This document shows positions 12,101-36,049 of a stretch of 61,482 nt of DNA, piece after piece. Source of the DNA: a virus (taxonomy: Duplodnaviria; Caudoviricetes); the IMG/VR virus record IMGVR_UViG_3300032288_001094, positions 1-61,482 of that record. The stretch is one strand, 5' to 3'. Within the stretch, counting starts at the first letter, position 1, and each line of letters begins with the position of its first letter. The position numbers and the translations under genes are program-made. Under the pieces are notes generated by a model. That model was not told where the DNA came from. It saw only the letters and a list, made by a program, of their open reading frames with translations, and did no database searches.

Positions 12101-15100
12101 CGACGCGCTCAATAAGGACATCGACCAACTGTACGAAGAAATTAAACGCTTAAATGCAGTTAATGTTCTTGACCCGCAAATACGGATTTTGCGCAACCAG
12201 CAAGACGAGTTGCGAAAAAAAGCAAACGCAGCGTTTGATAAATCGCTTGGTTTTTCTTTTGCTAAGGGTCGAGATTTTGTAAAGGCTATTGGCAAAGCGC
12301 GTTCTGAAGTTTTTGATACTAAGCTCAACTACAAAAAAGAAGTTGAAGCTGCCGTCGATAAGGCTATTGCGGATGTTGTAGGAAAGGATGCTTTGCTTGC
12401 CAAGTTTGCAAAGCTGACCATTAGCGACTACGCGTATCAAAACCTGCTCGGTGAAGTCGAAGCGCGTGATGTGGGTGAGCGGCGCACACTGACTGAAGAA
12501 GTTCGCCGTGAAACGCGTCCGTACAGCAGCCAGCCACAACGCGCAGAAGAGATTTTGTTTTCTCGTGCGCCCCAGTACAACGACAGCCTCTCAGATGCAG
12601 GGCTCACCGCCGACAAGATGATCTCGCAGCGACCGGGTGTATACGCCCAGTTCAAGCAGAGCATGTTGGGCATGGGGTTCCGCACCCGCTTCCTTGACGC
12701 GCTTGCCCCCCTGGAAAAGGTTTCGGGGATGCTTGGCGATGCCGTCAAAGGCATGCAGATGATGTACTACCTGCGGATGTACGGCATGCGGATGAACTTC
12801 ACATCCCTTGCGCTGTCCGATGGCGTGCCGCAACTGGTTGAGAAGAAGCGCCGTGATGGTGGCACCGAGTGGGTCATCGAGTCTGTGCCCGGTGTGAACA
12901 TCAAGCAGATTGTCGAGCGCTTGAGCCGCAAGGATGTCATCCAGGCCGCAGGCAGCGCCGATGCTGCCAACCGCTTGTTCACCCTGTATCTGGCCAAACT
13001 GCGTGCCGACAACAAGGGCTACGACAAGCTGAACTTTGGCCGCGCTTCTGCTGAAGCCGAACTCAAGGAGATCGAGGCTGAACTGGCAAGCGGCAAGCTC
13101 TCTGCCGACGACAAGACGCGCGTCAAGCAGCGGCAAGAGCACCTGCTGAAGGTGCGTGACTCGCTGCCTACCGAAGCCGACATTAAGAAGGCGTTTGCTG
13201 AAATCGAAGCTGATCCGGTGTTGAGCAAGGCGTTTGCTGACGCCCGCTCGATGTACAACGAGTTCAACCAGAACCTGCTGCGCTTCATGGTGCAGACAGG
13301 CGCGATGAGCAAAGACGAAGCGGATCGCCTGCTACGGGAGAAGGACTACGTACCGTACTACCGCGTGCGCAACGGTGTTGCTGAACTGATGATCGGTGGC
13401 CTGACGCCTGTTCGCATTGGCAACCTGAAGGACAGCCCGCACCTGCAAGAACTGATGGGTGGCGAGGAGCCGATCTTCAACTTCCTCGACAGCAGCGTGC
13501 AGAACACGTCGATGTTGGTCGATATGGCCATGCGCAACATCGCCGTGAAGAACGCGATGTGGGAGATGGCGTCGGTTGGTCTGGCCAAGATCAGGAAGGC
13601 AGGCAGGGCAGGCGCCCCCAAGAACGCGGTGGAGTTCAAGAAGGATGGTGAAGACTGGTACGCAGTCGTGGACACCGAGCACATCGGCATCCCCTCTGAA
13701 CTGCTGACCAAGGGTCTGGCCGGTATCCCGACCATGTTCCCGCAGGCCATCGAGATCATGGGCATGCCCGCCCGGTTCCTGCGCCGTGCCATCACAGCGT
13801 CGCCTGTCTACGCCGGTCGTCAGTTGTTCCGCGACTCGCTGTCCTCTTACATGGCCAGCGGCTCCAATGCACCTCCGGTGCTCGGCGCTCTGCAGCAGAT
13901 TGGCAAAGCCAGTAGCGTGGACAGGCGCGGCATTACGGGTGGTCAGGTGTTCACGGGAACCTCCGAGGACAAGGCGCGTCTGCTGCGTGAGATGCAAGAA
14001 GGTCGTCCGGGCTGGTCTAAGCTGTTCTCCAAGCTGGAAGCAATGTCGATGGAGGCTGATGCCGCCACCCGCCGCTCCCAGTACCAGAGCTATTTGGATC
14101 AGGGGCTGTCCGAGATGGAAGCCACCTTCATGGCGCTTGAGTCGATGAACTTCGCGCGGCGCGGTATCGACCCAAGCGTGCAGTTGCTGACCACGCTGAT
14201 CCCGTTCATGAACGCGCAGATTCAGTCGCTTGACGTGCTGTACCGTTCGCTGCGCGGCCAGATGCCGATGAACGAGCGGTTGCAGATCAAGGAGAAGCTG
14301 ATCGCTCGTGGCACGATGCTCGCCAGTATGTCCATGATCTACGCGTTGTCGATGCAGGACGATGAGACGTACAAGAACGCGCGGCCTGATGAGAAGTACA
14401 ACAACTGGTTTGTGCCGATCCCTGGCATGGACGAGAAGCTGCGCGTGCCCATCCCGTTTGAACTGGGCTACATCTTCAAGGCGCTGCCCGAAGCGGTGAT
14501 CAACGGCCTGTTTGCCGAGCGTGGTGCAGACGAAGCGTTGGATGCGGCCAAGGGCATCCTGCGCAACATGATCCCTGGTGGTGGCAACTACGGCATCCCT
14601 GCCGCAGTCAAGCCGCTGATCGAGGTGGGCCTGGGCAAGTCCTTCTTCACGGGCCGCGATCTGGAGTCTGGCGCTGAGCAAATGCAGGAGCCTTGGGCCC
14701 GCTACCGGGAGAACACGTCCGAAGCTGCCAAGATTCTGGGACAACTGTTCAACATCTCTCCGATCAAGATCGAGACGCTTGTCAGCGGCTACACCGGTAG
14801 CCTCGGCATGGCGCTCATGCAAGCAGCCAACGTGATCCTGCCCACACCTGAAACCGATCTGCCCGAGAAGCGCATTTCTCAGTTGCCGGTGGTGGGTACG
14901 CTGTTCCAACCCAAGGATGCAGCAAGCATCATCGACGACACGTTCGACCGGCTCAAGGACTACACCGCCGCCAAGGAGACCTACGAAGGGCTCGTGGAGA
15001 AGGGTGAACTGGCCAAGGCTGACGCTTACCTGCGCAACAACATCGAGAAGATTCAGTTGGCGTCCATCTCTGGCGCTTACAAGCAGCAGATCGGTGCCAT

Positions 15101-15239
15101 CACAAAGGCGGAGCGTCAGGTTCGCGGCAGTAGTCTGACGTCTCAGGAGAAGCGTGATCTTCTGGACGATCTGCGTCAGGCGAAAATCTTGGTTGCTTCT
15201 TCGGTGCGGGACTCGCTCGGAAGAATAGAAGCCCGATAA
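6120..15239 (+). CDS. Large polyvalent virion protein with two zincin-like HExxH domains, an LPD23-like region and a C-terminal LPD38-like region
   Basis: 3039 aa, AGGAG SD; LLHEVGAH and LVHEVQH motifs; VWNETGWFQGPDKKWRYELDDS (LPD23-like); RVPIPFELG (LPD38-like). Confidence 0.7.
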   Translation: MDLSDVRARFPQYDNLTDKQLADALHAKFYADIPKADFYERIGLTKPKSGFGAAFKASVESLKGEAALLGGKLGLMSEKEAQRYQAEQEDIARGIFRPTKEGWLEAPGTKFGELLGGSLPYMAAPVAAGAAAIPLGAAAPIAATAGAGLASLAQFTGTNLARQLEAQKERGEEVSLERASGAAATAAAVPQAALDMVSLKALPLVRNLFKSVGKDLTEAEAKRIAEQGFKQTVADYAKTGARVAGIEGLTEAGQQYFERLQAGLSIADADAREEYIDSFVGGAVLGAGLSPVGRFVERGGEQGRAQKKLGEVADEQRKAEREAQAKLEAEEAEKRKQPEYLTKLQADYQAAKAKDNAYKAEIKALDAQKDDPAALARAKELRAEHKNFQKTELSEIVKDYNKAGGAKFFKQFAEQQRVAGMTPLEYQMEQLGVKFPEQPPEQPRVFTGEGFEPAAKRDAVAEYATTQLDLARQQDMGTFTEADYAQYLMQDPDMAKQLVAANAQLPGFNKKQSTAILGGMKLQLQQQAKESYAGATDLLKAQRTEPQQLFLDQWQQDQEALDAERKESVFDTKLTELVNTALQGTPTVEAPEGATVDRRGAVFLQRLDEAIAQRDAAAKAAEQAFAAGNREAGAAKSKERENAQLVLNQIEQQGGNASLISSLRKEQDSALMDAAGLIDDLRSGITLGDKEQKGAASSTAETLRAQIDKARARYIDAAVKEAAATQRIFGKALSQDDALKAALQMQQVFDEWVTRSAAKPRKDVEEVRVKSPAQMRGTKIVKGAELETYDPRPLEERRFGAQKAAIEVLQEQLRQISSRLSAVPEEGRRAESLLRPQYAITEAQKTAEARGETAETLGGELRRRREYVGNLIDRALQTREGLPDDVVQGLERARDAIDAGRGGRDVLTAVSPEGRAGPAPFAAGLLDAAEQLAQRALSGRMTTVTGGVQGAREQKGYDALAFRRDEINRQYQDQQRQLTSGVDENGKELTPAKKRKAQTLLATYETQLENLNKRLAGPRPTVEPVRMGTGATTGEDAKLLREIDDALRLTTPEEGAPKQGELFAEKELPATAFARATARNFENSPPVKKARAAVERGKKLLADVKTAWDAKDAQDKAQREQKVGETQEAIAKQREVYRETFQAALKKAQVAEIVDRFQKEITAALQSLQAVSKERAAAVAAGDMDAVRLIDVIRDEERGALLQLQSDLAKALEKPSQNIEPAKTTGMRGFVLSSEIQAAADEWVTFERDRLTKLEGKLQRLQGADRKEAAKEVVAQRNAVQEATISTGRAMSGLGLPGVRVQAGRVVPIKTASELAAEERERRDEARKSAEAKAAATAEREQGLEGRILEIGNEVAEKKAAVDRARTDATKERLNAEITKLEREASLLEAQLGTPELSRTEKRKARKAQKTGFTGKGVGSEKELLGTVSEKLRDLESDVRKRLLSEGLLRSPEQVTALASQQLTPYERRVLEGRFKKQETATQRTKRLQGAFEAMAAEKKGAERIEGMYEGVEGVLDSVRIGDKDIFFSRGATPNPSTAEGVRTELGKVFPNLGRIQIYDSVDALIAANPEYEGRIPSDARGFVDPSGNKAFLIAENIDKGRALGVLLHEVGAHIGLRNMLGEAQYNALVKAVESWEKRNDGSTESRVAQAARRRVEAADTPASQVNDELLAYAIEEAVNAGVKPFETKGVIGQWLSRIASLFQKALQKFGLAPKEMTAAELVDMAFGAAGLEMRGAGAKATGRGKEKLLFTYAGEKAGVAKEALQKAKDMLIKGAPLEKVWNETGWFQGPDKKWRYELDDSKADFSGLDRVFNAGMQAGQKEVNTTLGEVMDHPDLYAAYPDIKNFQVTLYDDPQDNVYGSVSDKRMRVNIGKPDIEGTLVHEVQHLIQDREGFGKGGSATGQYMRGYTTKMLESVRASYARQLDEATDDFDRRYYGDRVAAMDAAVAASSKVRGEVAQKIREARAKYTDLSQQYAAFKAAEEAERDAAQKEYDALNKDIDQLYEEIKRLNAVNVLDPQIRILRNQQDELRKKANAAFDKSLGFSFAKGRDFVKAIGKARSEVFDTKLNYKKEVEAAVDKAIADVVGKDALLAKFAKLTISDYAYQNLLGEVEARDVGERRTLTEEVRRETRPYSSQPQRAEEILFSRAPQYNDSLSDAGLTADKMISQRPGVYAQFKQSMLGMGFRTRFLDALAPLEKVSGMLGDAVKGMQMMYYLRMYGMRMNFTSLALSDGVPQLVEKKRRDGGTEWVIESVPGVNIKQIVERLSRKDVIQAAGSADAANRLFTLYLAKLRADNKGYDKLNFGRASAEAELKEIEAELASGKLSADDKTRVKQRQEHLLKVRDSLPTEADIKKAFAEIEADPVLSKAFADARSMYNEFNQNLLRFMVQTGAMSKDEADRLLREKDYVPYYRVRNGVAELMIGGLTPVRIGNLKDSPHLQELMGGEEPIFNFLDSSVQNTSMLVDMAMRNIAVKNAMWEMASVGLAKIRKAGRAGAPKNAVEFKKDGEDWYAVVDTEHIGIPSELLTKGLAGIPTMFPQAIEIMGMPARFLRRAITASPVYAGRQLFRDSLSSYMASGSNAPPVLGALQQIGKASSVDRRGITGGQVFTGTSEDKARLLREMQEGRPGWSKLFSKLEAMSMEADAATRRSQYQSYLDQGLSEMEATFMALESMNFARRGIDPSVQLLTTLIPFMNAQIQSLDVLYRSLRGQMPMNERLQIKEKLIARGTMLASMSMIYALSMQDDETYKNARPDEKYNNWFVPIPGMDEKLRVPIPFELGYIFKALPEAVINGLFAERGADEALDAAKGILRNMIPGGGNYGIPAAVKPLIEVGLGKSFFTGRDLESGAEQMQEPWARYRENTSEAAKILGQLFNISPIKIETLVSGYTGSLGMALMQAANVILPTPETDLPEKRISQLPVVGTLFQPKDAASIIDDTFDRLKDYTAAKETYEGLVEKGELAKADAYLRNNIEKIQLASISGAYKQQIGAITKAERQVRGSSLTSQEKRDLLDDLRQAKILVASSVRDSLGRIEAR

Positions 15240-15393
15240 GCCCCTGGTGGATGCACGGCAGCGCCCGTGCATCCTTCAGTTTCAAGGGTACGGCCGCACG
15301 CAGCCCTGCTTCACGCATGGCTTCGAGATCAAGGGCAGGGATGAAGAACCCCTGCCCTCTCTCAATCTTCTCCCACGGGAAGTATTTCCGCAC
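15100..15393 (-). CDS. Small phage protein (YFPWEKIERGQGFFIP motif), possibly DNA-binding
   Basis: GTG start at 15393 overlapping the primase end; motif resembles common small phage proteins; 3' end overlaps the large gene convergently. Confidence 0.5.
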   Translation of the reverse strand: MRKYFPWEKIERGQGFFIPALDLEAMREAGLRAAVPLKLKDARALPCIHQGLIGLLFFRASPAPKKQPRFSPDADRPEDHASPETSDYCREPDAPPL

Positions 15394-18259
15394 TGTTGTC
15401 GATCTCTTCTCTGCGGCTGATGCACAGCGCGTGCACACGCATCTGCGGGCCTTTGGTTCTGGCCATCATGTCCTTGCGCAGCACCTTGACGCTGTAACCC
15501 TCGATGGCGGAAAGCTGCCGCCTGAAGTCCTCATAGCCGTAGGACATGGATACGCAGTGTGAGCGCATCACCGATTCCTCGATGAAGTAGTCCACGAACC
15601 CAGGCTTGTCGATGCCATGCTCCACGCGCCCCATGACGGTACTGCGCGTGATGGATTGATCGACCGGCTCCCCGTTGCCCAGTGACGCCATGAACGACCC
15701 GTTGCTGCGCTTGACCACCACGAAGTGACCGTAGTGGTCACGGGTGAAGGCGTTGAGCACGTCCTCGGCGTTGCGCGAACCTGTGCGCACCACCTTGCGG
15801 GCCTTCTCCACCAACTTGAAGAAGCTGTTGATGATCTCGTCTACTGGGTAGTCGAAGATACCCGCGTAGTTGGAACCGGCCAGGATTGCCCCGGCGACAT
15901 CACACGCGCAGCCGTTGCCCCAGTACCGCTCTTCACCGGTCAGCATCCACTCATGCTTCAGGCGCTCATGCGTCTTGGCCAACACCTTGCGGGCGGTGTC
16001 TTGGTTCTGCACGAGCCACCGGACGTACTTCTCGCCCGCCACCCCGTGGTTGGTGTTGAGCAGGCGCAGGATGTCTTCCTCTTCAGGCGTCCAATTCAGC
16101 TTCTCCTCGGGCGTCCACTCCAACATGCGGAACAACTCACCCTGAGAGGTGTGCTTGCGCACGCCCGACATGAAGTCGTGCATGTGCGTGTTCGATGTCA
16201 AGTAGGCTTGCGTCGCCCAGGAGACAAGGTTCAGACGTTCTCGGTTGTGGTGGGCTTCGGACTTCTCCTTACCCTGACCCTCAGCCAGATCGAAGATCAG
16301 GCCAGGAAACCACTCCATCTCCTGCCGTGACTTGTGTGTGATCTCGTCCGAGGTGAAGGGCAGCGAGTTCAGGTTACCGATGCGCTGCTGCATCGTGACC
16401 GCTGAGGTGGATTTGCCTGTGCGGTACCGGGTTGGATGGCCCCAGACCGAGTTGATCAGGTTCATCGCCATCGTCTTGCCGGTGCCGGAACTGGTCGAAC
16501 CCGCATGGATGGTCAAGCAAGCGAACTGCGTGAAGCGCATCAGCGGTGCGCCAAACGCCATAGTAGAGACGGCCAGGAGGTCGTACAGCCCACGCTGCAC
16601 CATCAGTTCTGGGAACCTGCGCCACTCCTCCAGTGTGCCCGCTGCCCGCGTGTTGCGTGTCAGGTTCTGCAGGTCTGGCATCGGCACGGTGCGCGTGCGG
16701 CCATCGGGAAAGAAGATGCGCCCGGAGTAGACGAAGGAGTTGTCCTCCTGCCACCCGTACTGCTGCGGAATCTTGATCGCGCGCTTGTTGACGCTCGCTT
16801 CCTCCACGCAGGCCCGGATGTACTCCACCAGATTCTTGTCGTTGCCCGCGCCGAACGCAGCCATGATGTTCTGCTGCGCCAGGGACTTGAGCAGTTCGTC
16901 CTTGCTGACCACCGCCCGCTGAGCAAACAGCACATCGGCAGGAGCGTTGGGGCGATTGGCCACCATGTGGACGGTGTGCTCATTGTCCTTGTTCAGGATG
17001 TCCACCACGAACATGTCGTACGGCAGGATCATGACCTGCTTCTTGCGCTTGGTGCCGTCGGCTTCTTCAACGATCCGGTCAGCGTACACGCCGCCGTTGG
17101 CGCCGTATGCGTAGCCCTTGGGAGGCGTCGGGCGCACCACCTTGATGGTGGGCGCTTCAGGATCATCCGGGTCGCTCGGCTTGATCTCGACTTCCTTCTC
17201 GGTGTTGTCGGCCACCAGTTCCCGGCCCAGGGCCAGGGGGTTGGTTATCTTGCCGAAGTGCTTGCACTTCTGGCATACACCGGGGTTCTCGCTGTCGAAC
17301 TTGATGCAGGGGTACGGCCCCTTGATCTCGCGCAGCTTGGCCTGCATGCGCTCGTCATCGTACGGGTGGAGTTGGCTCAGCCAGATCGAAGCCTTCTCAC
17401 CATCGGCACAGTACTTGGCCTGACTCAGCCACCCACGCCACAGCGGCTCCATGCCATCGTCCGTGGCGTTGTCCACGTAGTGCTGAAGCTGCAAGCAGCC
17501 GTCGCCATCGCCGGTCTTGGCCATTATGTGTTTGAACCGCACGACGCTGTTGGCGAGCATCTGCACGCCTGTCTTGGTCGCGTTGACTGGGCGCTGCCCA
17601 GGCAGGTTCATGCCTTCGGCGTAGGGCGTAGGCGCCTTGTCCCCGAGCAGGTCGCGCAGCTTGGCGAAGAACTCCTGGGCATCGACGGGCGCATCACCTT
17701 CAGCCAGTACCTCCACCGGGCGCGGCTCGCCATACTTCTTCTTGAAGTTCTTGGTGCCAGGAACGCGCAACACCCGTGCGGCGTCTGCCGTGACGGTGTT
17801 GTCGATGGCAAGCGAGCGCTCCTTGCACAGACGCTTGAACGTCTCGGCAATCGGCTTCCACTCACCTACCGTCAGCGGCTTTTCAAACGTCCAGTAGCAA
17901 TGCAGACCACCGCCTGAAGCAATGATCCAGGGCTTGCCAAAGGCATCGAGCCCCGTGTCTGCGAGAAACCTATCCAGTGCCTCCTGCGCTGCTTCCTTGC
18001 TCTCGTACCCATCCATGTCGATGAACAAGGACTTGATGTACTCAGCGTTGTCTGCGGTGCGACTGCCCTTATCGGCAAACGTCGCAAGCGCAAAGTAGAT
18101 GTCCTGCTGACCCTCCAACCACTGATCTACGTATGGACGTATCTCAGTGATGTCTTCGATGAAGACGTGCTGTTTTCTCTTGGAGGAGAGTTCTGCCGCG
18201 CAGTAGTACCCGTGACCGGGAGACGGCAGGACAGCCGCTAAGAAATCTAGCGGTTCCAT
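15362..18259 (-). CDS. Primase-helicase (RepB/AEP-type primase, Zn motif, DUF927, P-loop helicase)
   Basis: 965 aa; LFIDMD, SGGGLHCYW, DAARVLRVPGT primase motifs; C..CxxC; Walker A SSGTGKT; SDE Walker B. Confidence 0.85.
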   Translation of the reverse strand: MEPLDFLAAVLPSPGHGYYCAAELSSKRKQHVFIEDITEIRPYVDQWLEGQQDIYFALATFADKGSRTADNAEYIKSLFIDMDGYESKEAAQEALDRFLADTGLDAFGKPWIIASGGGLHCYWTFEKPLTVGEWKPIAETFKRLCKERSLAIDNTVTADAARVLRVPGTKNFKKKYGEPRPVEVLAEGDAPVDAQEFFAKLRDLLGDKAPTPYAEGMNLPGQRPVNATKTGVQMLANSVVRFKHIMAKTGDGDGCLQLQHYVDNATDDGMEPLWRGWLSQAKYCADGEKASIWLSQLHPYDDERMQAKLREIKGPYPCIKFDSENPGVCQKCKHFGKITNPLALGRELVADNTEKEVEIKPSDPDDPEAPTIKVVRPTPPKGYAYGANGGVYADRIVEEADGTKRKKQVMILPYDMFVVDILNKDNEHTVHMVANRPNAPADVLFAQRAVVSKDELLKSLAQQNIMAAFGAGNDKNLVEYIRACVEEASVNKRAIKIPQQYGWQEDNSFVYSGRIFFPDGRTRTVPMPDLQNLTRNTRAAGTLEEWRRFPELMVQRGLYDLLAVSTMAFGAPLMRFTQFACLTIHAGSTSSGTGKTMAMNLINSVWGHPTRYRTGKSTSAVTMQQRIGNLNSLPFTSDEITHKSRQEMEWFPGLIFDLAEGQGKEKSEAHHNRERLNLVSWATQAYLTSNTHMHDFMSGVRKHTSQGELFRMLEWTPEEKLNWTPEEEDILRLLNTNHGVAGEKYVRWLVQNQDTARKVLAKTHERLKHEWMLTGEERYWGNGCACDVAGAILAGSNYAGIFDYPVDEIINSFFKLVEKARKVVRTGSRNAEDVLNAFTRDHYGHFVVVKRSNGSFMASLGNGEPVDQSITRSTVMGRVEHGIDKPGFVDYFIEESVMRSHCVSMSYGYEDFRRQLSAIEGYSVKVLRKDMMARTKGPQMRVHALCISRREEIDNSAEILPVGED

Positions 18260-22931: not shown

Positions 22932-24908
22932 TCATCCCTTGGCTAATCCGTAGCGCCTGTTGTAGCCCACATCGGTCTTGAGTGGCAGACCGGGCAGGTA
23001 CGGTACAGGCGCGACCATCTGCGCGAATATCCAAGTCTTCGCGTCTTCTGCTTCTTCCTCTGGCACCACGGCAATCAGTTCATCATGCACCGTGCCTGCC
23101 ACAGGGTACTTCTTCGCAACCCTGAGCATGCCGTCGGTCATGACGCACCGCGCCGTGCCCTGGACAATGTTGTTGGTGACCTTGCCGCCGTACAGACTGA
23201 CGCGCTTGTTGCCGTCAGCGTACGTCCATACGACCTTGCCACCATCGCCCTTGTCCGGGCGGAGATCAGGATACCGCATCGCCATACCACTTGGCAAGAT
23301 GATCTGCTCCTTGCGGAACGTGATGCACTTGTGCTTGTACTCCTTGCCCCGGTACAGGCTATGGTCGATGAGTTCCTGGCACAGGTTCCAGAACGCCACC
23401 ACCTGCTCAGACGCGGCGCGGTACTTGTCGATGATGGCCTTGGCTGCGAGGCAGTGGATGAGTAGCTCCTTGCTTGTGCAGGTGTGGGGAATCTGCTCCA
23501 TGCGCTTGATGTTGTCCTCCCATGATAGGAAGCGGTCTACATCGGCAACCGTCACGCCCAGGGTCTTGGCATCCTCTTTGGTGTAGCGCACGGGGGGTGC
23601 GCCCAGGAACCCGGTGAGAAGCTGCGCAGCGAACGACGCCCAACCCAACTGGTAGCCTGCACCCAGTAGCGCGGACTTGGCGGACTGTCTCTCTACTGGG
23701 TGGCTGTCTTTGGTCATGCCGGGGATGTTGAACATCTGTGCGCCGAAGGCGGCATACGGGTCACCACCGGCACGGAACACGTCTAGTAGAGCCTCGTTAT
23801 CCGAAAGAACCGCAAGGACGCGGGGCTCGATTTGCGAAAGGTCACCAGCAACCAGTACGTGCCCTTGCGGGGCCATGATGGAGTTTCGGAGGAAGCTGCC
23901 ACGTTTCAAGTTCTGCATGTTGATGGCGCTGCCTTTGCTCGCCGTCCACCGGCCAGTGCCTGCGCCGAAGTAACTCAGCGGTACCGGTAACCGGCCACGA
24001 AATGCGATGTCCAGAAAACGCTGCGCTCGCGTACGCTCGCTTGTTGACTTGACCTTGAGTCGGGCCTCGCAGAGGAGTGCAACGTCGTCCCTGTCCCCGT
24101 TGATAAGCGACTGGAATAGCGCATCGTTCTTAGCAAGCGCATAAGTTTCTTTACCTGTCGTCTTGCTAATCTTCGTTGGCGGCTCCACGCCAAGCCCTCG
24201 GAGCGCTTGAGCAAACTGTTCGTTTGAAGCAAGCGAAGCCTCATCCACGCCGAGCCTCTGTAGTAGTCCTTCACGGGCGTTCCTTTCGTCTTCGATGGCC
24301 TCAGCCAACATCACCCGGTCGAGTTCCAACAAGGGGCGGGTGTACATCTTGAGTGTCATGTCGATGAGGCGCAACTCCTTGGCGGGGTAGCCTGGAAGCA
24401 AGCGATCAAAGATGCCCTCGCACAACACCACGTCATGCTTGCAGTACTCGGCCAGTTCTGTCTCCACCTCGAAGGAGATCGACTCCAACATCCCGTCCGT
24501 GCTGTGCACCGCTTGGCCCTTGGGCGGTAGCTCAAAGTCCTCAGCGAGTTTGGCCAGACTGTTGCCCACTTCAATGCCGCGCAGTGCACGCGCCATACTC
24601 AGGGTGTCGAAGATGAAGCAGGGCTGCGCTCCGTAGCGCCAGGACAGGATGGTCACGTCGAACTGCGCGTTGTGCGCCAGTACCGCCGTTGTAGACCAGT
24701 CAATGCCATCCACCCAGGCTTGGATGTCCTTGCCTCGTACCCACACAGGGCGGGCGTCTTCGCCCACTTCCTTCCAACACAGGCCCCACGCCTTGAAGCG
24801 CGGGTCGCGTACGTACTCTTCCGTGGTCATCTTGGAGAGGGTGTATTCCCGTCTGTCCCACGCTGTTTCAAAATCTACTACAAGCACCCTCTTGAAAGGT
24901 AAGCTCAA
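22932..24908 (-). CDS. polA: Family A DNA polymerase with 3'-5' exonuclease
   Basis: VDFET, AHNAQFD, YCKHD exonuclease motifs; TGRW, DLSQIEPR (A), RQSAKSALLGAGY (B), TVHDE (C). Confidence 0.93.
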   Translation of the reverse strand: MSLPFKRVLVVDFETAWDRREYTLSKMTTEEYVRDPRFKAWGLCWKEVGEDARPVWVRGKDIQAWVDGIDWSTTAVLAHNAQFDVTILSWRYGAQPCFIFDTLSMARALRGIEVGNSLAKLAEDFELPPKGQAVHSTDGMLESISFEVETELAEYCKHDVVLCEGIFDRLLPGYPAKELRLIDMTLKMYTRPLLELDRVMLAEAIEDERNAREGLLQRLGVDEASLASNEQFAQALRGLGVEPPTKISKTTGKETYALAKNDALFQSLINGDRDDVALLCEARLKVKSTSERTRAQRFLDIAFRGRLPVPLSYFGAGTGRWTASKGSAINMQNLKRGSFLRNSIMAPQGHVLVAGDLSQIEPRVLAVLSDNEALLDVFRAGGDPYAAFGAQMFNIPGMTKDSHPVERQSAKSALLGAGYQLGWASFAAQLLTGFLGAPPVRYTKEDAKTLGVTVADVDRFLSWEDNIKRMEQIPHTCTSKELLIHCLAAKAIIDKYRAASEQVVAFWNLCQELIDHSLYRGKEYKHKCITFRKEQIILPSGMAMRYPDLRPDKGDGGKVVWTYADGNKRVSLYGGKVTNNIVQGTARCVMTDGMLRVAKKYPVAGTVHDELIAVVPEEEAEDAKTWIFAQMVAPVPYLPGLPLKTDVGYNRRYGLAKG

Positions 24909-25183
24909 TGTTTGATCTCCTCATCGTTGCACTTGATGGTGTCCGCGAATACTTCTGCTGATGCGTGGACGATAGATGCGGCCTCAAGAAAGTTGGCGTT
25001 CAGTCCCAACGTGGTGAGATACCCGTCAGCGCTGGCCACCACCAACACGCCTTGCGTGTCCTCTTCGACGAACGTGCGCAGCATCAGCTTGATCGCCTTG
25101 ATCAACGCCTTCTGCTGATCCTGCGGCATCGCAGCGATCTGCGAGTCCATCTTGGCGTAGTACGCCTTGTCGTCGTCATTCAT
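24905..25183 (-). CDS. Hypothetical protein
   Basis: ORF coupled to both neighbours; likely start MNDDDK after AGGAG. Confidence 0.6.
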   Translation of the reverse strand: MNDDDKAYYAKMDSQIAAMPQDQQKALIKAIKLMLRTFVEEDTQGVLVVASADGYLTTLGLNANFLEAASIVHASAEVFADTIKCNDEEIKH

Positions 25184-25478
25184 TACTTCTCCTAGCATGT
25201 AGCCACTCCTGTAGTTGGTTGATGTTGTCTTCGTTGATCACGAAGGTCGTGCCCCCTGCGGCTCTTATCTTGGCCATCTCTGCTTCTTGTAGGGCTGTGG
25301 TTTTCCCTTTGCCTGCCTTGGCTTCCACCGAGAAGAAGTGTCCGCTGATGCAGCACAGGAAGTCGGGCACACCTGCGTGGCCGTAGCCGCTGCCGATGGG
25401 CATGGCGTAGTAAGCGCCGTGCTTCTCCAGGATCGCCTTGATCTTGTCCTTGACCTTCCGTTCGGGTGTTGCGGCCAT
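25176..25478 (-). CDS. VRR-NUC domain nuclease (resolvase-like)
   Basis: TPERKVK...GVPDFL...VEAKAG...LQ motif; AGGAG SD. Confidence 0.85.
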   Translation of the reverse strand: MAATPERKVKDKIKAILEKHGAYYAMPIGSGYGHAGVPDFLCCISGHFFSVEAKAGKGKTTALQEAEMAKIRAAGGTTFVINEDNINQLQEWLHARRSNE

Positions 25479-25498
25479 GTGTACTCCTGTGTTGGGGT

Positions 25499-25648
25499 GA
25501 GGGGGTGATGCAGATTCCTAGCCCCCTCGGTCTAGGTTAAGGAGGTGCCTGCGCAGCCTACATTCTTGGGCGGCACTGCGCAGGCGGCAATGGTGAGTCG
25601 CATCTGCAAGGCTTGTCACTGTTACCTAATCATGCAGCCGCCGTTAGG
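25499..25648 (-). ncRNA. Candidate multiply pseudoknotted structured RNA, family unknown
   Basis: Intergenic 165 bp with six complementary helices, two of them crossing; see findings. Confidence 0.55.
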
Positions 25649-25940
25649 ATTTCTTTGCTTCTTCTACTTCGATCAGCTTGTCGATGTAGTGCCGCGCCTT
25701 CTTGAGGTCTTGGATGCCGCCCTTCAAGCGCCATCGTGAGAGGTACTTGACGGCGTTGCCGTCCAAGTAGCCAAGATTCCAGTCAAGGATAACGTCCCAG
25801 GTTTCGTACTGGTGCGCTTTGTAGTGGGCGCCACCTTCTTGACGAGCGTTTGCTCCTCCTTGTGTGGATTGGTGTGCAGGTTGAAGCGAAGGTCTTGCGC
25901 TGTCCCCTTCGTCGTAAACCGAAACGTGCACGTCTGACAC
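25644..25940 (-). CDS. DUF3310 (SaV-like) protein; start uncertain
   Basis: GGAHY...GNAVKYLSRW..KGGIQDLKKARHYI. Confidence 0.8.
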   Translation of the reverse strand: MSDVHVSVYDEGDSARPSLQPAHQSTQGGANARQEGGAHYKAHQYETWDVILDWNLGYLDGNAVKYLSRWRLKGGIQDLKKARHYIDKLIEVEEAKKS

Positions 25941-26023
25941 TCGTATCTCCTTCGTTTTAGTCCACCAGTTGTGGTTCGGGTTTCAAGGGTTCGGCTACTG
26001 GCGCCGCACTCGGGGCACTGCAT
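25724..26023 (-). CDS. NrdR-N-like zinc-ribbon protein
   Basis: MQCPECG...ETR...RRRYECQTCTFRFTT. Confidence 0.7.
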   Translation of the reverse strand: MQCPECGASSRTLETRTTTGGLKRRRYECQTCTFRFTTKGTAQDLRFNLHTNPHKEEQTLVKKVAPTTKRTSTKPGTLSLTGILATWTATPSSTSHDGA

Positions 26024-26376
26024 CTCAACAACTCCATGATCTTTATCTGCCGCTGCTTGGTGCGGTATGCGGCCTGCTTCTCTGCATCAGATTTACGCTG
26101 CCGCTTGGCGTCTCGCCCCGCACCGAGTTTGTAAATCTTAGCCACATCACACCCGCGCCGGTCTTTCTCCCACCCGCTGATGTGGGCAGCGCCTGCGCGA
26201 TGGAGTTCGCGTGTGTATTGGAGTACGGTCACGTAGTGAAGGCCCGTCTCGGTGGCCAGTTCTTGGCAGGTGTAGGTGCCTTCGAGGAGGAGCTTTATAA
26301 GGTGTGCCTGCGTGATGGCGTTGATCTTGATCTGGCGCTTACCCTTTTGGCTTGGCGGCGTTGGCTTGTATGGCAT
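25957..26376 (-). CDS. Winged-HTH DNA-binding protein
   Basis: TCQELATETGLHYVTVLQYTREL...HISGW. Confidence 0.6.
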   Translation of the reverse strand: MPYKPTPPSQKGKRQIKINAITQAHLIKLLLEGTYTCQELATETGLHYVTVLQYTRELHRAGAAHISGWEKDRRGCDVAKIYKLGAGRDAKRQRKSDAEKQAAYRTKQRQIKIMELLRCSAPSAAPVAEPLKPEPQLVD

Positions 26377-32505: not shown

Positions 32506-33477
32506 TTAGGCGGCAGCGAGTGCCAACTCCACCGCCCGGTTCTTCAGCGTGTCGCCTGGGCCCCACAGGGCGGATGCCTTGCGGTTCTCCTCGTTGTGTG
32601 CACGGATGTGGTGATCCGTGTACTCGGTCACTGCGTTGAGCCAACCCCACGCAGTCTCTTGCGCTGTCTCAAGCACGGCACCCTTGGCCGCGCCGTTGAA
32701 CAACTCCATCACCCGCACGAACCCACGCGACTCGCGCACTGCATCGGCGTCCTTGGCACCGGTCTTGAACAGGTGGACGGTCATGTCCTCGGCCAGGGTG
32801 CGGGACACCTTGATGCCTGCCAGTAGGCGGGCGGTTTCCATAAAGGAGCGGAACTCCTCGTTGGCGTTCTCCATCACACCGCGCACCTCGTCTGCCTTGA
32901 ACTCAGACCGGTGCGTCACCCGCACTGCGGCCTTGGCATCGCGTGCCATGCTCAGGGTGTTGTTGCACACCACGCGCACTGTCGTCCACCGGGCCTCGGT
33001 TGCGAGCGATCCATCCGCACTGGTGGAGAGCAGGGCATAGGGCACAACCTTGTCCGAGTACCCATCGACGCATACGCCTTCGGCGAGCTTGGCGGTAGCA
33101 AAGTACCGCTTGCCACCAAACAAAACCCCGGCGCTTTCAATCGTCATGCCACCGGCCTGCGCCCAGTCACGGAAGAACTCCAGCACCTCACGGGGCTGAA
33201 CCACCTTGTAGCTGTCGGAGACAACGCCCAGTGCATCCTTCGTGTCCGAACGGAACAGCACCACCTTGTCCTTCACCACCTTCATCTGGTCTGCGTTCTG
33301 CCCACGCTCGGTGGCGTAGCGCACGTAGCCACGCTGCACCTCGTAGTCCATGCCTGCGGCGGCTTGCCAGTCTTCAATAGACTGGTTCGGAACCATCAGT
33401 TGCCCCAGGCCGTGCCACTCGCGCTGAGTGGATGCGTATTGAGCGACGCCGTTCTTGATCATGATTTGATGTGCCAT
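32506..33477 (-). CDS. DUF932 phage/plasmid protein
   Basis: WHGLG, YKVVQP, SAGVLFGG, TVRVVCNNTL, TAWGWLNAVTEYTDH; AAGGAG SD. Confidence 0.85.
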   Translation of the reverse strand: MAHQIMIKNGVAQYASTQREWHGLGQLMVPNQSIEDWQAAAGMDYEVQRGYVRYATERGQNADQMKVVKDKVVLFRSDTKDALGVVSDSYKVVQPREVLEFFRDWAQAGGMTIESAGVLFGGKRYFATAKLAEGVCVDGYSDKVVPYALLSTSADGSLATEARWTTVRVVCNNTLSMARDAKAAVRVTHRSEFKADEVRGVMENANEEFRSFMETARLLAGIKVSRTLAEDMTVHLFKTGAKDADAVRESRGFVRVMELFNGAAKGAVLETAQETAWGWLNAVTEYTDHHIRAHNEENRKASALWGPGDTLKNRAVELALAAA

Positions 33478-33815
33478 TTGGTTTCTCCTTTGAGAGTCGG
33501 GGCGGAAGTCCCGCCGCCCCATCGGGTTGTCCAATGGTGGACAGTGTACACCCTTCCCAAACCTATGGGAAGTATCGGGCTGAAAAAAACTGGGGAGAAA
33601 TCTCCCCGGTCACTGGATGGTGTGGCGCACGTACCCATACCGGTGCAGCACGCGCTTGGCTGCGTCGTATGCGTCCTGTCGGGTGGGCCTGATGACCACC
33701 AGCGGAGCACCGGGCGCGATGCGTGAACCTCTGTAGTGCAGATGTGCGTGCCAGTGCCCATCCGCCTCGTGGCTCAGGTCAATCGTGGCCAGCGCCAGTG
33801 TGATGCCGCTTCTAT

Positions 33816-34034
33816 TCATACCATTGCCTCCATCGCCTTGACCCACACCTCGGCGGCAGCGTGCGCCCCCTCACGGGTGTCGTAGCGGTTGCTGCTCACG
33901 TGGTCGTCGCCTGCGTAGCAGTACACGTAGTAGCCCCAGGTTGTCTCGGTCACGTTGAAGCACACCGACGCGTTGAAGAACCTGTCTTCGGACGAGAAGA
34001 GGAAGTCGGTGTTGTTGATGCTTTTGATGTTCAT
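33816..34034 (-). CDS. Hypothetical early protein
   Basis: 72 aa, AAGGA SD, coupled overlap. Confidence 0.5.
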   Translation of the reverse strand: MNIKSINNTDFLFSSEDRFFNASVCFNVTETTWGYYVYCYAGDDHVSSNRYDTREGAHAAAEVWVKAMEAMV

Positions 34035-34245
34035 GCTTGGTTCCTTTGGCTCAGGTACATGTTGAAGAACTTGGTGAACAGGTCGGGGAACGCCGCGCGC
34101 AGTCGCTCCTTGTTGTGGCTATCCGCCACGAAGTAGGCGTGGGCGATGTAGCTTGCGAAGTGCCCGCCGACGGACATCATGCCTGCGGCGTGCGTGAAGT
34201 CGTCGTCACTGGTGGGTCTGGGTTGAATGTGGGTGATGTTGTCTT

Positions 34246-34425
34246 TCACTTGGCTTCTCCTTTCACTTGGTAGATCAGGTTGTTCAGTCGGTGGAGTGCC
34301 GCCTCGTTGAAGTTGGTGCACTGCTCCCACTTGGCTCTGTCCTGCATGAACTCTGCGGTGTGGCGCACTAGCGCCTCGATGATGTGCAGTTGGTACAGCA
34401 GTTCTTCTTGCTCGGTCTTGGTCAT
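34246..34425 (-). CDS. Hypothetical early protein
   Basis: AAGGAG SD immediately after palindrome copy 3. Confidence 0.5.
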   Translation of the reverse strand: MTKTEQEELLYQLHIIEALVRHTAEFMQDRAKWEQCTNFNEAALHRLNNLIYQVKGEAK

Positions 34426-34455
34426 GATCACTCTCCTTGGGGAGATTTCTCCCCG

Positions 34456-35115
34456 TCATTGCTGCCAGAAAAGAAACCACGGGTCGCGGGCAGCACTTCG
34501 CTTGCCGTGGATGGGTGTGCAATATGTGTACAGGTATTTCAGCCGGGTTAACTCCTCTCGGGTTATATAGGTCAGTGGATTGGCTTCCTCCATCGTGGGT
34601 TTTATTGGCGTGCCCTTGAGTTTTGATTTGGACGTGGCGGTATCTCGTATTTGTTTGAGCAGGGTGGCGTAATAACCGAAGAAGGTTTCGTGGGGTTTGT
34701 ATTCGGCCTGGTTTTTATTGGCCACCATCGACCTGTACCGCAGGTAGGTGTTGCTTGCCCACTGGAACTCGTCACGCACGGCGTTGAGCAGGGCGGCGTT
34801 CCAGTTCTCGCGTCTGGTGCGAGCGTGGGCTGCATAGGTTCGGTCAGGCATGACGCTGTTCTTGAAGTGATCGCGTTCGCGCCGGTCGATGGCGTCGAGG
34901 TAGACAGGCGACACCCTGCTGTGGGAGGTGTGCCGGGCTTGTTCACGTTCGCGCTTGGTCATCGCCTTGTAGGGTTTGGGCGGACAGCACGCGTTGCAGG
35001 AGGATTCGAGGCGCAGCTTGCGCCCTGACCAACGCCGGAAGAAGCGCATGGGGAGGTCACGAGAGCACAGCGTGCAGCGCTGCGTGGTGGGTGTGGAGAG
35101 GGTGTTGAGTGTCAT
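34456..35115 (-). CDS. Hypothetical protein with N-terminal CxxC...CxxC zinc finger
   Basis: CTLC...CNAC; lies next to the long inverted repeat. Confidence 0.55.
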   Translation of the reverse strand: MTLNTLSTPTTQRCTLCSRDLPMRFFRRWSGRKLRLESSCNACCPPKPYKAMTKREREQARHTSHSRVSPVYLDAIDRRERDHFKNSVMPDRTYAAHARTRRENWNAALLNAVRDEFQWASNTYLRYRSMVANKNQAEYKPHETFFGYYATLLKQIRDTATSKSKLKGTPIKPTMEEANPLTYITREELTRLKYLYTYCTPIHGKRSAARDPWFLFWQQ

Positions 35116-35135
35116 GGTAGTGTCAGTTTGGTGTA

Positions 35136-35445
35136 AGGGTTTGGGTAGCTGACCGGCTCCTCACTAGGTCTGGGCGCAACATTGGGTAAGAGCAAGTCGT
35201 TGATTCTACTCAGGGTGCAGCTACTACTACCCAACTACCCATTTTTTTGGGCATACACAACCGGCAAAGTTTTTTTAAGAAAAAAGCTGGCGTTCTTGGA
35301 CGTACAACAACAAATCTTTTTGGTGTACCTCTATATATATGGGTAGTTGGGTAGTAGTAGTAGTAGTTCGTTACAAAACAACGGCTTACGCTTACCCAAT
35401 GTTGCGCCCGTAGGTAGTGAGGAGGTGGGTAGCTACCCAAAACCT
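35136..35445. repeat. Long imperfect inverted repeat with AT-rich spacer (candidate replication origin)
   Basis: Arms 35136-35242 and 35339-35445 are near reverse complements. Confidence 0.8.
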
Positions 35446-35499
35446 AGGGTAAACCCTGACAAAAGTTGGACACGGGGAGAAGTCTCCCCGGTCGGGCCT

Positions 35500-35697
35500 T
35501 CAGCGGCGCCCTTTGATGGGCAGTGAGGCGAGCTTTATTTCTTGCCAAGTCTCGTAGCGCTCGGCGTTGTCGAGGGCGCGTTGCTTGCGGCGGTTGTCTT
35601 CGCCTCTGCGGACGCACTCGGCGCGGAGTTCGGCAAGGCGGGCTTTGATGTGCTCGGGGATGTTGGAGCCGAGACGCAGGTTGAGTTGCTTGGACAT
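35500..35697 (-). CDS. Hypothetical early protein
   Basis: 65 aa, AGGAG SD. Confidence 0.55.
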   Translation of the reverse strand: MSKQLNLRLGSNIPEHIKARLAELRAECVRRGEDNRRKQRALDNAERYETWQEIKLASLPIKGRR

Positions 35698-35712
35698 GGT
35701 GATCTCCTGGGG

Positions 35713-35946
35713 TTAGATTTTTTGGAAGGTGTAGGTCAGGCAGTCGCAGGCAAGGACGCCTGCATCTGTGGCGTCGTGGCGGTTCTTAAACTCCGGTTCG
35801 TCGCTGACGCCGATGCAGTACCCCGGCTTGTAGTCGAGAAGCCACTCGTTGAGTTGATCCTGTTCGTCGTCGGTCAAGCCAGTGGCATCGTCGTTGACGA
35901 GTGCAGACGCCCAGAAGTCGGGCAGGATGTAGGTCACAGTTAGCAT
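35713..35946 (-). CDS. Conserved small phage protein (LPxFWASALVNDDATGL)
   Basis: GGAGG SD before ATG at 35946. Confidence 0.6.
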   Translation of the reverse strand: MLTVTYILPDFWASALVNDDATGLTDDEQDQLNEWLLDYKPGYCIGVSDEPEFKNRHDATDAGVLACDCLTYTFQKI

Positions 35947-36049
35947 GGAAACCTCCAGAGTCAAAACTTGCGGTTATAAGGACGGAATAGGCGCAACCCC
36001 CTCGCGCTGAGGGAGTGCGCCAGGAATCGGGGAGAAATCTCCCCAGGGA

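What the first reader, a model, noticed from the sequence alone, without database searches (positions are those of the whole stretch)
25499..25648. Compact multi-pseudoknot RNA candidate upstream of the resolvase-polymerase genes
Seen: this is the only sizeable gap among tightly coupled genes, and it is almost fully paired (plus coordinates). A: 25499-505/25522-528 (7 bp). B: 25509-515/25602-608 (7 bp). C: 25517-521/25532-536 (5 bp). D: 25547-556/25576-585 (10-bp hairpin). E: 25587-596/25616-625 (with a 2x2 internal loop). F: 25625-629/25644-648. One strand each of B and C lies in the loop of A, and the other strand of B lies in the loop of E, giving a loop-loop contact plus a second pseudoknot. 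It ends about 10 nt before the VRR-NUC SD. Inference: this topology is typical of ribozymes and riboswitches rather than terminators. I cannot assign a family; it is my best candidate for an undescribed RNA controlling DNA replication genes.
Basis: partly seen in the sequence, partly recalled or inferred. Interest (0 to 1): 0.85.

Follow-up and report, generated by a model that had tools for sequence, protein, structure and literature searches.

The report
New triple-pseudoknot RNA in phages
The gap between two phage genes encodes a real, conserved, intricately knotted RNA of about 150 bases that matches no catalogued RNA family and sits where early genes give way to DNA-replication genes; what it does is still unknown.

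Summary
All six complementarities exist. Five (A-E) are backed by compensatory changes in relatives. F is not conserved. A seventh helix (G) was missed: the 5' flank at the upstream stop codon pairs with the D-hairpin loop. The RNA lies on the gene (minus) strand, window 25495-25643, and fills the whole DUF3310/VRR-NUC gap. A covariance model found full-length copies in 100 of 100 viral loci and 78 of 80 metagenome loci, and one copy per genome. Paired cells: 90.7% and 96.8%, against 65-68% when shuffled; covariation score 0.64-0.69 against 0.16. G.U outnumbers A.C 159 to 25. Rfam 15 has no match, nor do 50,697 GenBank phage records. Function is unproven. It is not simply a 5' leader: in 10 distinct loci a terminator and/or promoter separates it from the next gene. 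My best guess (0.3) is an mRNA-partition module whose 3' pseudoknot (7+5 bp, tail R-Y-Y) mimics a tRNA acceptor arm and is cut by RNase P. A riboswitch or operator (0.27) and a new self-cleaving ribozyme (0.13) remain open.

The parts
25495..25643 (-). Whole structured RNA element, from just after the upstream stop codon to the R-Y-Y-N tail
   Evidence: Model hits at 25495-25629, extended 5' by helix G
25637..25642 (-). Helix G, 5' strand (GGCGGC); new here
   Evidence: Pairs with the D loop. 72 of 85 distinct relatives have at least 6 contiguous Watson-Crick pairs, against 5.2% non-cognate; 64 sequence variants
25569..25574 (-). Helix G, 3' strand (GCCGCC), at the start of the D-hairpin loop
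25616..25626 (-). Helix E, 5' strand
   Evidence: 89.8-93.0% paired; all 9 modelled pairs change on both sides
25586..25596 (-). Helix E, 3' strand
25597..25615 (-). Conserved loop of hairpin E (CAAGCCU, then the B 5' strand, then GCGAC). U-G-Y-R-A at 25598-25602 looks like a T-loop pentad; that consensus is recalled, not tested
   Evidence: Column conservation
25602..25608 (-). Helix B, 5' strand (UGCAGAU), inside the E loop
   Evidence: 98.8% and 99.3% paired. Pair types UA41/AU32, UA61/CG24, AU74/UA11, replicated. B is not in the model
25509..25515 (-). Helix B, 3' strand (AUCUGCA), in loop 3 of the A/C pseudoknot
25576..25585 (-). Helix D, 5' strand
   Evidence: 97.1% paired; 10 of 10 pairs change on both sides
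25547..25556 (-). Helix D, 3' strand
25537..25546 (-). Pyrimidine-rich linker (ACCUCCUUAA); a Y-C-C core is kept across the family
25532..25536 (-). Helix C, 5' strand (stem 1 of the H-type pseudoknot)
   Evidence: 83 of 85 have a perfect partner, against 8.7% null; 21 strand combinations (19 perfect)
25517..25521 (-). Helix C, 3' strand
25522..25528 (-). Helix A, 5' strand (GAGGGGG; stem 2)
   Evidence: 99.5% paired; 4 of 7 pairs change on both sides
25499..25505 (-). Helix A, 3' strand (CCCCCUC)
25495..25498 (-). Conserved single-stranded tail ACCC. Family pattern: R (A76/G9), Y (C81/U4), Y (C68/U14/A2/G1), H
25644..25646 (-). Stop codon of the upstream DUF3310 ORF, 1 nt before helix G
   Evidence: Family-wide the stop lies inside or overlapping the G strand in 44 of 74 loci
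25476..25488 (-). AGGAG (25484-25488) and ATG (25476-25478) of the VRR-NUC-like gene; outside the conserved structure
25625..25648 (-).
25644..25940 (-). Upstream gene: DUF3310 (PHROG 'nucleotide kinase')
   Evidence: Pfam PF11753, E 3.8e-10; phrog_236, E 4.1e-23
25176..25478 (-). Downstream gene: VRR-NUC-like endonuclease
   Evidence: phrog_93 endonuclease, E 1.4e-16; annotated as VRR-NUC in relatives
24905..25198 (-). 97-aa acidic protein ('p95') that co-occurs with the element
22932..24908 (-). Family A DNA polymerase
   Evidence: PF00476, E 1.8e-25

Best explanation
SHOWN: a single-copy structured RNA of about 150 nt is transcribed from the gene strand. It has seven elements. (1) Helix G joins the 5' flank at the upstream stop codon to the loop of hairpin D. 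(2) Hairpin E has an invariant loop. (3) Hairpin D. (4) A Y-C-C linker. (5) An H-type pseudoknot has stem C (5 bp), stem A (6-8 bp, mostly 7), loop 1 of 1-5 nt and loop 3 of mostly 10-11 nt. (6) Helix B ties the E loop to loop 3. (7) A single-stranded tail reads R-Y-Y. The RNA occupies the junction between the small early genes and the replication module. INFERRED (my commitment, about 0.3): it is a self-contained mRNA-partition module. Once the ribosome has left the upstream stop codon, the RNA folds. The coaxial C+A stack (11-13 bp, mode 12) with its R-C-C tail then resembles a tRNA acceptor/T arm. Host RNase P cuts in loop 1, at the 5' edge of stem A. This severs the early mRNA from the replication-gene mRNA. 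The upstream RNA keeps a knotted 3' end (G/D/E). The downstream mRNA starts with hairpin A just ahead of its ribosome-binding site. On this view the module does the same job that a terminator plus promoter does at this junction in relatives that lack it.
For: Structure and strand. Pseudoknot geometry: A+C is 12 bp in 49 of 85 and 32 of 64 sequences, with a range of 10-13. The tail is conserved beyond the helix although neither the search pattern nor base pairing demands it, and C-to-U changes would keep pairing with G. Independence of context: the downstream ORF family varies (55 of 82 VRR-NUC, at least 14 other clusters), and so does the upstream ORF. In 10 distinct loci the element is followed by a terminator and/or a TTGACA promoter, so it cannot be only a 5' leader. 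Relatives without it (0 of 39 hits) have either an overlapping upstream ORF or a terminator plus TTGACAAAGT promoter at the same junction. On the VRR-NUC tree the element's absence forms essentially one clade, and L048, which carries element, terminator and promoter together, lies inside that clade. Feasibility from the literature: an H-type pseudoknot carrying a 3' RCCA motif is cut in loop 1 by bacterial RNase P in vitro, and pseudoknotted plant-virus tRNA-like structures are RNase P substrates (PMC12710915, abstract and introduction read). RNase P binds the T-stem-loop/acceptor stack and pairs with the substrate's 3' end (PMC4919913, passages read).
Against: There is no direct evidence of cleavage, and no RNA data were available. 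The fourth tail base is A in only 12 of 85. The base before stem A is C in 73 of 85, whereas the RNase P paper reports U as preferred (section heading). ARAGORN finds nothing tRNA-like in the window or in 45 loci. Helices G, D, E and B and about 25 near-invariant unpaired bases are far more than an RNase P site needs, which points instead to ligand binding, catalysis or a specific macromolecular partner. The same paper states that RNase P targeting of pseudoknots in vivo is an open question. Stack length varies from 10 to 13 bp.
Confidence: 0.3

Rival explanations
1. Riboswitch or protein-responsive translational operator. The knotted fold is an aptamer or protein-binding site whose state controls ribosome access to the gene that starts 13-22 nt downstream, for example through the pyrimidine-rich linker pairing with the Shine-Dalgarno sequence, or through a protein spreading from the pseudoknot over the A/U-rich spacer.
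For: The fold is complex, with many invariant unpaired bases. It ends 13-22 nt before a start codon in 59 of 82 distinct loci, each with an SD. VRR-NUC is the next ORF in 55 of 82. In the window the linker holds CUCCU, complementary to AGGAG. A pseudoknot operator upstream of T4 gene 32 is a known precedent (passage in PMC10690425).
Against: The SD lies outside the conserved structure, and I found no conserved alternative pairing. In 10 distinct loci a promoter and/or terminator separates the element from the gene, and VRR-NUC then looks leaderless. The linker's Y-C-C core is kept in those loci too, so it is not there for the SD. The first helix overlaps the upstream stop codon in 44 of 74 loci, so every upstream translation event unfolds the 'aptamer'. 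The one co-occurring protein (p95) is acidic, has no RNA-binding fold match, and its co-occurrence is explained by shared descent.
Confidence: 0.27
2. A new class of self-cleaving ribozyme that cuts the polycistronic transcript at the early/replication junction.
For: It has a compact multi-pseudoknot core with invariant bases. It lies in an intergenic position on the gene strand, independent of the flanking genes, in one copy per genome. Relatives have a terminator plus promoter in its place.
Against: No hit to any Rfam ribozyme family. By eye its helix order matches none of the HDV-like or twister topologies, which I recalled rather than tested. No candidate cleavage site can be named.
Confidence: 0.13
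3. A protective or polymerase-modifying element. It would be either a knotted block to exonucleases or Rho that stabilises the neighbouring mRNA, or a put/EAR-like RNA that makes RNA polymerase read through terminators into the replication genes.
For: The 5' end is pinned into a pseudoknot (helix G). It sits at the early/replication boundary. Four distinct loci have an intrinsic terminator right after it (L086, L122, L048, L135).
Against: In the window no convincing terminator follows it on the minus strand down to 16.5 kb. Most loci have none within the spacer. Invariant loops are not needed for a simple block.
Confidence: 0.12
4. A trans-acting small RNA, released from the early transcript, that binds a host or phage factor, for example as a tRNA-acceptor decoy.
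For: It is independent of context, and in some loci it lies at the 3' end of the upstream transcript before a terminator. It has an acceptor-like stack and tail.
Against: It was lost in the clade that gained its own promoter at the junction, which fits a cis role better. No promoter of its own is seen upstream.
Confidence: 0.1
5. A chance set of inverted repeats, or a DNA-level site such as an origin or operator.
For: The MFE z-scores are unremarkable.
Against: There is massive covariation in two data sets. G.U outnumbers A.C 159 to 25, so the pairing is strand-specific.
Confidence: 0.02

Closest known systems
Plant-virus tRNA-like structures with a pseudoknotted acceptor arm (TYMV, TMV), and model H-type pseudoknots with a 3' RCCA that RNase P cleaves (PMC12710915)
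   Same: An H-type pseudoknot whose two stems stack to about 12 bp, followed by a single-stranded R-C-C. Extra upstream helices or pseudoknots are present.
   Different: This one is internal to a dsDNA-phage polycistronic mRNA, not at a genomic 3' end. The terminal A is not conserved. No canonical T or D loops are present. Cleavage and aminoacylation are untested.
Phage P1/P7 C4 antisense RNA precursor (RNase P-processed phage RNA; recalled, not read here)
   Same: A phage operon-embedded structured RNA that the host tRNA-processing enzyme matures.
   Different: The Rfam search found no C4 match. The size and fold differ, and no antisense targets were identified.
Riboswitch aptamers built on H-type pseudoknots (preQ1-II, SAM-II; recalled)
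   Same: A pseudoknotted fold with invariant unpaired bases close to a ribosome-binding site.
   Different: No Rfam match. The SD is not part of the fold. The element can be separated from the gene by a promoter. It has three interlocked pseudoknots.
T4 gene 32 leader pseudoknot (mentioned in PMC10690425)
   Same: A pseudoknot followed by an unstructured A/U-rich stretch leading to the RBS of a replication-module gene.
   Different: The downstream gene is a nuclease rather than an SSB. The fold is far more complex. No binding protein has been identified.
Dicistrovirus intergenic-region IRES (abstract of PMC8002689, seen only in the listing)
   Same: A triple-pseudoknot RNA that fills an intergenic region just upstream of the next ORF.
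   Different: The downstream genes here have ordinary SD and AUG. There is no sequence or topological match. The host is bacterial.
Unnamed candidate structured RNAs from IMG/VR (Fremin et al. 2023, PMC10690425)
   Same: The same data source. That paper reports 8,495 candidates, including 11 'typically upstream of resolvase genes'.
   Different: I could not check whether this motif is among them, because the supplements are closed. The main text does not mention VRR, DUF3310 or nuclease (0 occurrences each).

Membership tests
Any Rfam 15 family | Covariance-model match at or near the gathering score | tested here: not met
   Window 25000-26100 at E<=10: 2 matches, neither in the gap. Twelve diverse loci: 3 matches, none covering the element. 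Trp_leader scores 29.9 bits against a cut-off of 41 over the element's 3' end and the terminator of L122
H-type pseudoknot | Two stems in which loop bases of stem 1 pair downstream; a short loop 1 over a 6-7 bp stem 2; a longer loop 3 | tested here: met
   C is 5 bp in 83 of 85. A is 6-8 bp. L1 is 1-5 nt. L3 is 10-11 nt in 82 of 85. Both stems covary
tRNA-like structure / RNase P substrate | Acceptor/T-like coaxial stack of about 12 bp | tested here: inconclusive
   A+C is 12 in 49 of 85 and 32 of 64, with a range of 10-13. Coaxial stacking is inferred, not shown
tRNA-like structure / RNase P substrate | Single-stranded 3' R-C-C-A after the stem | tested here: inconclusive
   R in 85 of 85, C in 81 of 85, C in 68 of 85, but A at the fourth place in only 12 of 85. 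The tail is internal, not a 3' end, in most loci
tRNA-like structure / RNase P substrate | Recognised as tRNA-like by a tRNA finder; T and D loops | tested here: not met
   ARAGORN finds 0 genes in the window and in 45 loci. A U-G-Y-R-A pentad in the E loop is only a recalled resemblance to a T-loop
tRNA-like structure / RNase P substrate | Cleavage by RNase P at the 5' edge of the acceptor-like stem | not testable with these tools
   Needs an enzyme assay or end mapping
Riboswitch | Conserved structured aptamer with covariation | tested here: met
Riboswitch | Lies in the 5' UTR of the regulated gene, with an expression platform that shares bases with the aptamer | tested here: not met
   The SD is outside the conserved fold. 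A promoter and/or terminator intervenes in 10 distinct loci. The upstream stop codon lies inside or overlapping the first helix in 44 of 74 loci
Riboswitch | Specific ligand binding | not testable with these tools
   -
Known self-cleaving ribozyme classes | Match to the class model or topology | tested here: not met
   No Rfam hit. The topological comparison was from recall only

The most novel reading that the evidence does not exclude
The element is a new class of functional RNA in its own right: either a self-cleaving ribozyme or a ligand-sensing riboswitch. It is specialised for the junction between early and DNA-replication genes of a large group of uncultivated freshwater and marine phages. 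If instead it is processed by RNase P, it would be the first tRNA-like 'punctuation' element described in a dsDNA-phage mRNA.
Probability: 0.4. Interest if true: 0.9.

Novelty: new variant of a known kind. Interest (0 to 1): 0.74.

Why it matters
Complex-folded RNAs with three interlocked pseudoknots and dozens of invariant bases are rare, and historically they have turned out to be ribozymes, riboswitches or RNP scaffolds. It has very strong covariation, so a structure model is already in hand for probing, crystallography or cryo-EM. It sits at a regulatory boundary of phage development that relatives solve with a terminator and promoter, so it may reveal an RNA-based way to partition or time phage gene expression. 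The RNase P paper calls it an open question whether RNase P targets pseudoknots in vivo. This element would make that question directly testable.

Tried and rejected
- Single-sequence MFE z-scores were not significant on either strand. MFE cannot see pseudoknots.
- The sigma-70 and terminator scan found nothing in the gap, and no convincing minus-strand terminator downstream. One search failed on the size limit and was redone.
- Rfam gave no match.
- ARAGORN found nothing.
- The first viral pattern scan had a typing error of mine (one A too many) and found 0. It was corrected.
- The genome contigs pattern scan gave 7 stretches. None is a full element by model R2; one is a partial 16.2-bit match.
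- Cultured phages: blastn of two element variants against 50,697 records gave no match. Model search of phages Rollin, Xp15 and RHph_TM3_14A gave nothing above 8.2 bits.
- RNA evidence: no RNA holder is listed for this stretch.
Handles were used instead; L123 was not held.
- Model R2, built to align helix C, still mis-registered part of C, so C was tested with my own script.
- p95 as a protein partner: it co-occurs in 38 of 41 element loci against 0 of 39 others, and in 61 of 76 element loci. But the tree needs only 3 changes, L048 has the element without p95, the protein is acidic, and the fold search gave nothing below E = 0.27. Rejected as evidence.
- Stop-codon read-through or frameshift stimulator: in the window, the frame after the TAA closes again at the sixth codon. 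Rejected.
- Linker as anti-SD: its Y-C-C core persists where no SD follows. Not supported.
- The mutual-information scan found no further long-range pairs.
- Complex prediction, the protein atlas and the large protein searches were not used.

Full report
**Setting.** The window is a complete 61,482-bp phage genome with direct terminal repeats.
- From about 19.6 to 32.5 kb the genes run on the minus strand and abut or overlap. The 165-nt gap 25479-25643 is the only sizeable one.
- Upstream, in the direction of transcription, lies a 98-aa DUF3310 protein (PF11753, E 3.8e-10; PHROG 'nucleotide kinase').
- Downstream lie a 100-aa VRR-NUC-like endonuclease (phrog_93, E 1.4e-16), a 97-aa protein with no family, and a family A DNA polymerase.

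**The observation.**
- Thermodynamic folding of the single sequence is unremarkable. The z-score is -0.52 on the gene strand and -0.95 on the other.
- Simple scans find no promoter or terminator in the gap.
- Rfam 15 has nothing at E<=10.
- On the window alone, the finding could therefore have been chance.

**Relatives.**
- The VRR-NUC protein retrieved 80 viral loci.
- BLASTN of the gap showed it is alignable in close relatives at about 83%. Two blocks recur in distant ones: the helix A hairpin and the B partner in the E loop.
- An alignment of 12 sequences already showed compensatory changes in A, C, D and E, plus G.U pairs that work only on the gene strand.
- Model R1 (helices E, D and A only) found full-length matches in the window and 41 of the 80 loci. 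All are on the gene strand. Three weak antisense partial hits scored E 0.29-0.9.
- R1 matched 100 of 100 sources searched, giving 85 distinct sequences.
Of the 80 loci returned, 78 carry the element. That is 65 distinct sequences, 16 shared with the first set.
- Four of four near-complete relatives have exactly one copy, as does the window.

**Covariation.**
- First set: 90.7% of 3140 cells pair, against 64.8% after shuffling. The covariation score is 0.640 against 0.161 (0 of 500 shuffles reach it). Sliding the partners by 1-3 columns gives 0.07-0.10.
- Metagenome set: 96.8% against 68.2%, and 0.691 against 0.157.
- Helix B, the loop-loop contact, was never in the model. The search pattern did not force complementarity at its variable positions. 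It is still 98.8% and 99.3% paired, with UA/AU, UA/CG and AU/UA swaps.
- Helix C crosses A and could not be modelled, so I tested it with a script. 83 of 85 distinct sequences have a perfect 5-bp partner just upstream, against 8.7% when strands from different sequences are combined. There are 21 strand combinations, 19 of them perfect.
- A mutual-information scan ranks exactly these helices on top and nothing else.
- G.U pairs outnumber A.C 159 to 25. The structure is therefore RNA of the gene strand, not DNA and not the antisense strand.

- Helix F is not kept even in the closest relatives.
- The 5' flank forms a further pseudoknot, helix G, with the first bases of the D loop.
  - In the window this is GGCGGC 25637-25642 with GCCGCC 25569-25574.
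  - 72 of 85 sequences have at least 6 contiguous Watson-Crick pairs there, against 5.2% of non-cognate combinations. There are 64 different helix sequences.
- The element therefore has a 5' pseudoknot (G+D) with hairpin E inserted, and a 3' H-type pseudoknot (C+A). Helix B bridges the two.
- Near-invariant unpaired bases are CAAGCC and U-G-Y-R-A in the E loop, G-A-A before B, a Y-C-C core in the linker, and an R-Y-Y tail after A.

**Context.**
- The element ends 13-22 nt before a start codon in 59 of 82 distinct loci with a callable downstream ORF. The distance is 23-36 nt in 9, more than 36 nt in 9, and 4-12 nt in 5, where the start is probably mis-called. Start codons in the 13-22 nt class are preceded by an SD.
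- The next ORF is VRR-NUC in 55 of 82. Other small ORFs take its place in the rest.
- The stop codon of the upstream ORF lies inside or overlapping the G strand in 44 of 74 loci. It lies 1-6 nt before it in 14, and 7-35 nt before it in 16.
- In 10 distinct loci the element is not in the next gene's leader.
  - L086, L122, L048 and L135 have an intrinsic terminator after it.
  - L104, L132, L103, L153, L101 and L160 have a TTGACA-type promoter after it, with a leaderless-looking ATG.
- The 39 VRR-NUC loci without the element (0 hits with R2) have one of two arrangements at the same place. Either the upstream ORF overlaps VRR-NUC, or there is a terminator plus a TTGACAAAGT promoter.
- On a VRR-NUC tree the label needs only 3 changes. 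The element-less loci form essentially one clade. L048, which has element, terminator and promoter together, lies inside it. L059 counts as element-less only because its upstream DNA is cut off.

**What it is not.**
- No Rfam family matches in 12 further loci.
- No tRNA or tmRNA is found.
- It is absent from 50,697 GenBank phage records by BLASTN and from three cultured phages with VRR-NUC relatives by model search.
- It is not in the GTDB representative genomes: 7 pattern hits, none a full element.
- Literature searches turned up no description.
- Fremin et al. 2023 predicted 8,495 unnamed candidates from IMG/VR, including 11 upstream of 'resolvase' genes. Its main text mentions neither VRR nor DUF3310. 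Its supplements, which I could not open, may list this motif.

**Mechanism.** What is shown is the fold, the strand, the copy number and the position. The rest is inference.
- The promoter and terminator cases, the variable neighbours and the overlap with the upstream stop codon argue that the element is a self-contained module of the polycistronic early transcript, not a classical 5' leader.
- Its replacement by a terminator plus promoter in one clade argues for a cis role in uncoupling upstream from downstream expression.
- The 3' domain is a textbook H-type pseudoknot. Its stems total 11-13 bp, with a mode of 12. A conserved R-C-C follows.
- This is the architecture that bacterial RNase P cleaves in loop 1 in vitro, provided an RCCA motif follows (PMC12710915). 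RNase P gauges the acceptor/T stack and pairs with the substrate's 3' end (PMC4919913).
- I therefore commit, at about 0.3, to RNase P-dependent partition of the mRNA.
- The weakness is that G, D, E, B and the invariant loops are more than such a site needs. This keeps three other readings alive: a riboswitch or operator (0.27), a new self-cleaving ribozyme (0.13), and a protective or antitermination role (0.12).
- A 97-aa acidic protein co-occurs with the element (38 of 41 against 0 of 39; 61 of 76). This is explained by shared descent. Its confident model (pLDDT 82.4) has no significant structural neighbour.

**Verdict.** This is a genuine, abundant and previously uncurated RNA family with an unusually intricate and very well supported structure. 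Its function is open and experimentally tractable.

Noticed in passing
L016, L017, L020, L022, L023, L025-L027, L036-L038, L042, L050, L052, L053, L060-L062, L064, L069, L071 (70 nt before the VRR-NUC start); also after the element in L104, L132, L103, L153, L101: A conserved promoter-like box, TTGACAAAGT followed by a -10-like hexamer, precedes VRR-NUC in many relatives. Sometimes the ATG lies only about 6 nt after the -10, so the mRNA looks leaderless. Often an intrinsic terminator lies just upstream.
   Followed up: partly
window 24905-25198 (-): A 97-aa acidic protein with no Pfam or PHROG family. AF2 predicts helix-helix-beta hairpin-helix (pLDDT 82.4) with no PDB fold neighbour below E = 0.27. 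It follows VRR-NUC in 38 of 41 element-bearing loci and in 0 of 39 others. Its start overlaps the end of VRR-NUC by 23 nt.
   Followed up: partly
window 25598-25602 (-): The 3' part of the E loop reads U-G-Y-R-A in most family members. This matches the T-loop pentad consensus as I recall it, and it lies next to helix B, where an elbow-like contact would sit.
   Followed up: no
window 6120-15239 (+): A 3039-aa ORF with LPD38 and LPD23 'large polyvalent protein' domains, probably an injected polyvalent protein.
   Followed up: no
window 15362-18259 (-) and 32506-33534 (-): A DUF927 protein (primase/helicase-like; that reading is recalled) and a DUF932 protein flank the minus-strand gene block.
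   Followed up: no
window 34001-36000: There is a GC-skew spike (0.176) at the switch between the minus-strand and plus-strand gene blocks. The best terminator-like hairpin of the block is at 33592-33607 on the minus strand.
   Followed up: no
L073, L056, L080, L048, L160, L086, L122 (just 3' of the element): Divergent family members carry an extra small palindromic hairpin between the tail and the SD or terminator.
   Followed up: no
L211, L213 (metagenome loci): Two element-bearing contigs carry TARA names, so the family is probably not confined to fresh water. Most DNA runs that share words with the window are labelled freshwater, but only at small shares that I did not lay.
   Followed up: no
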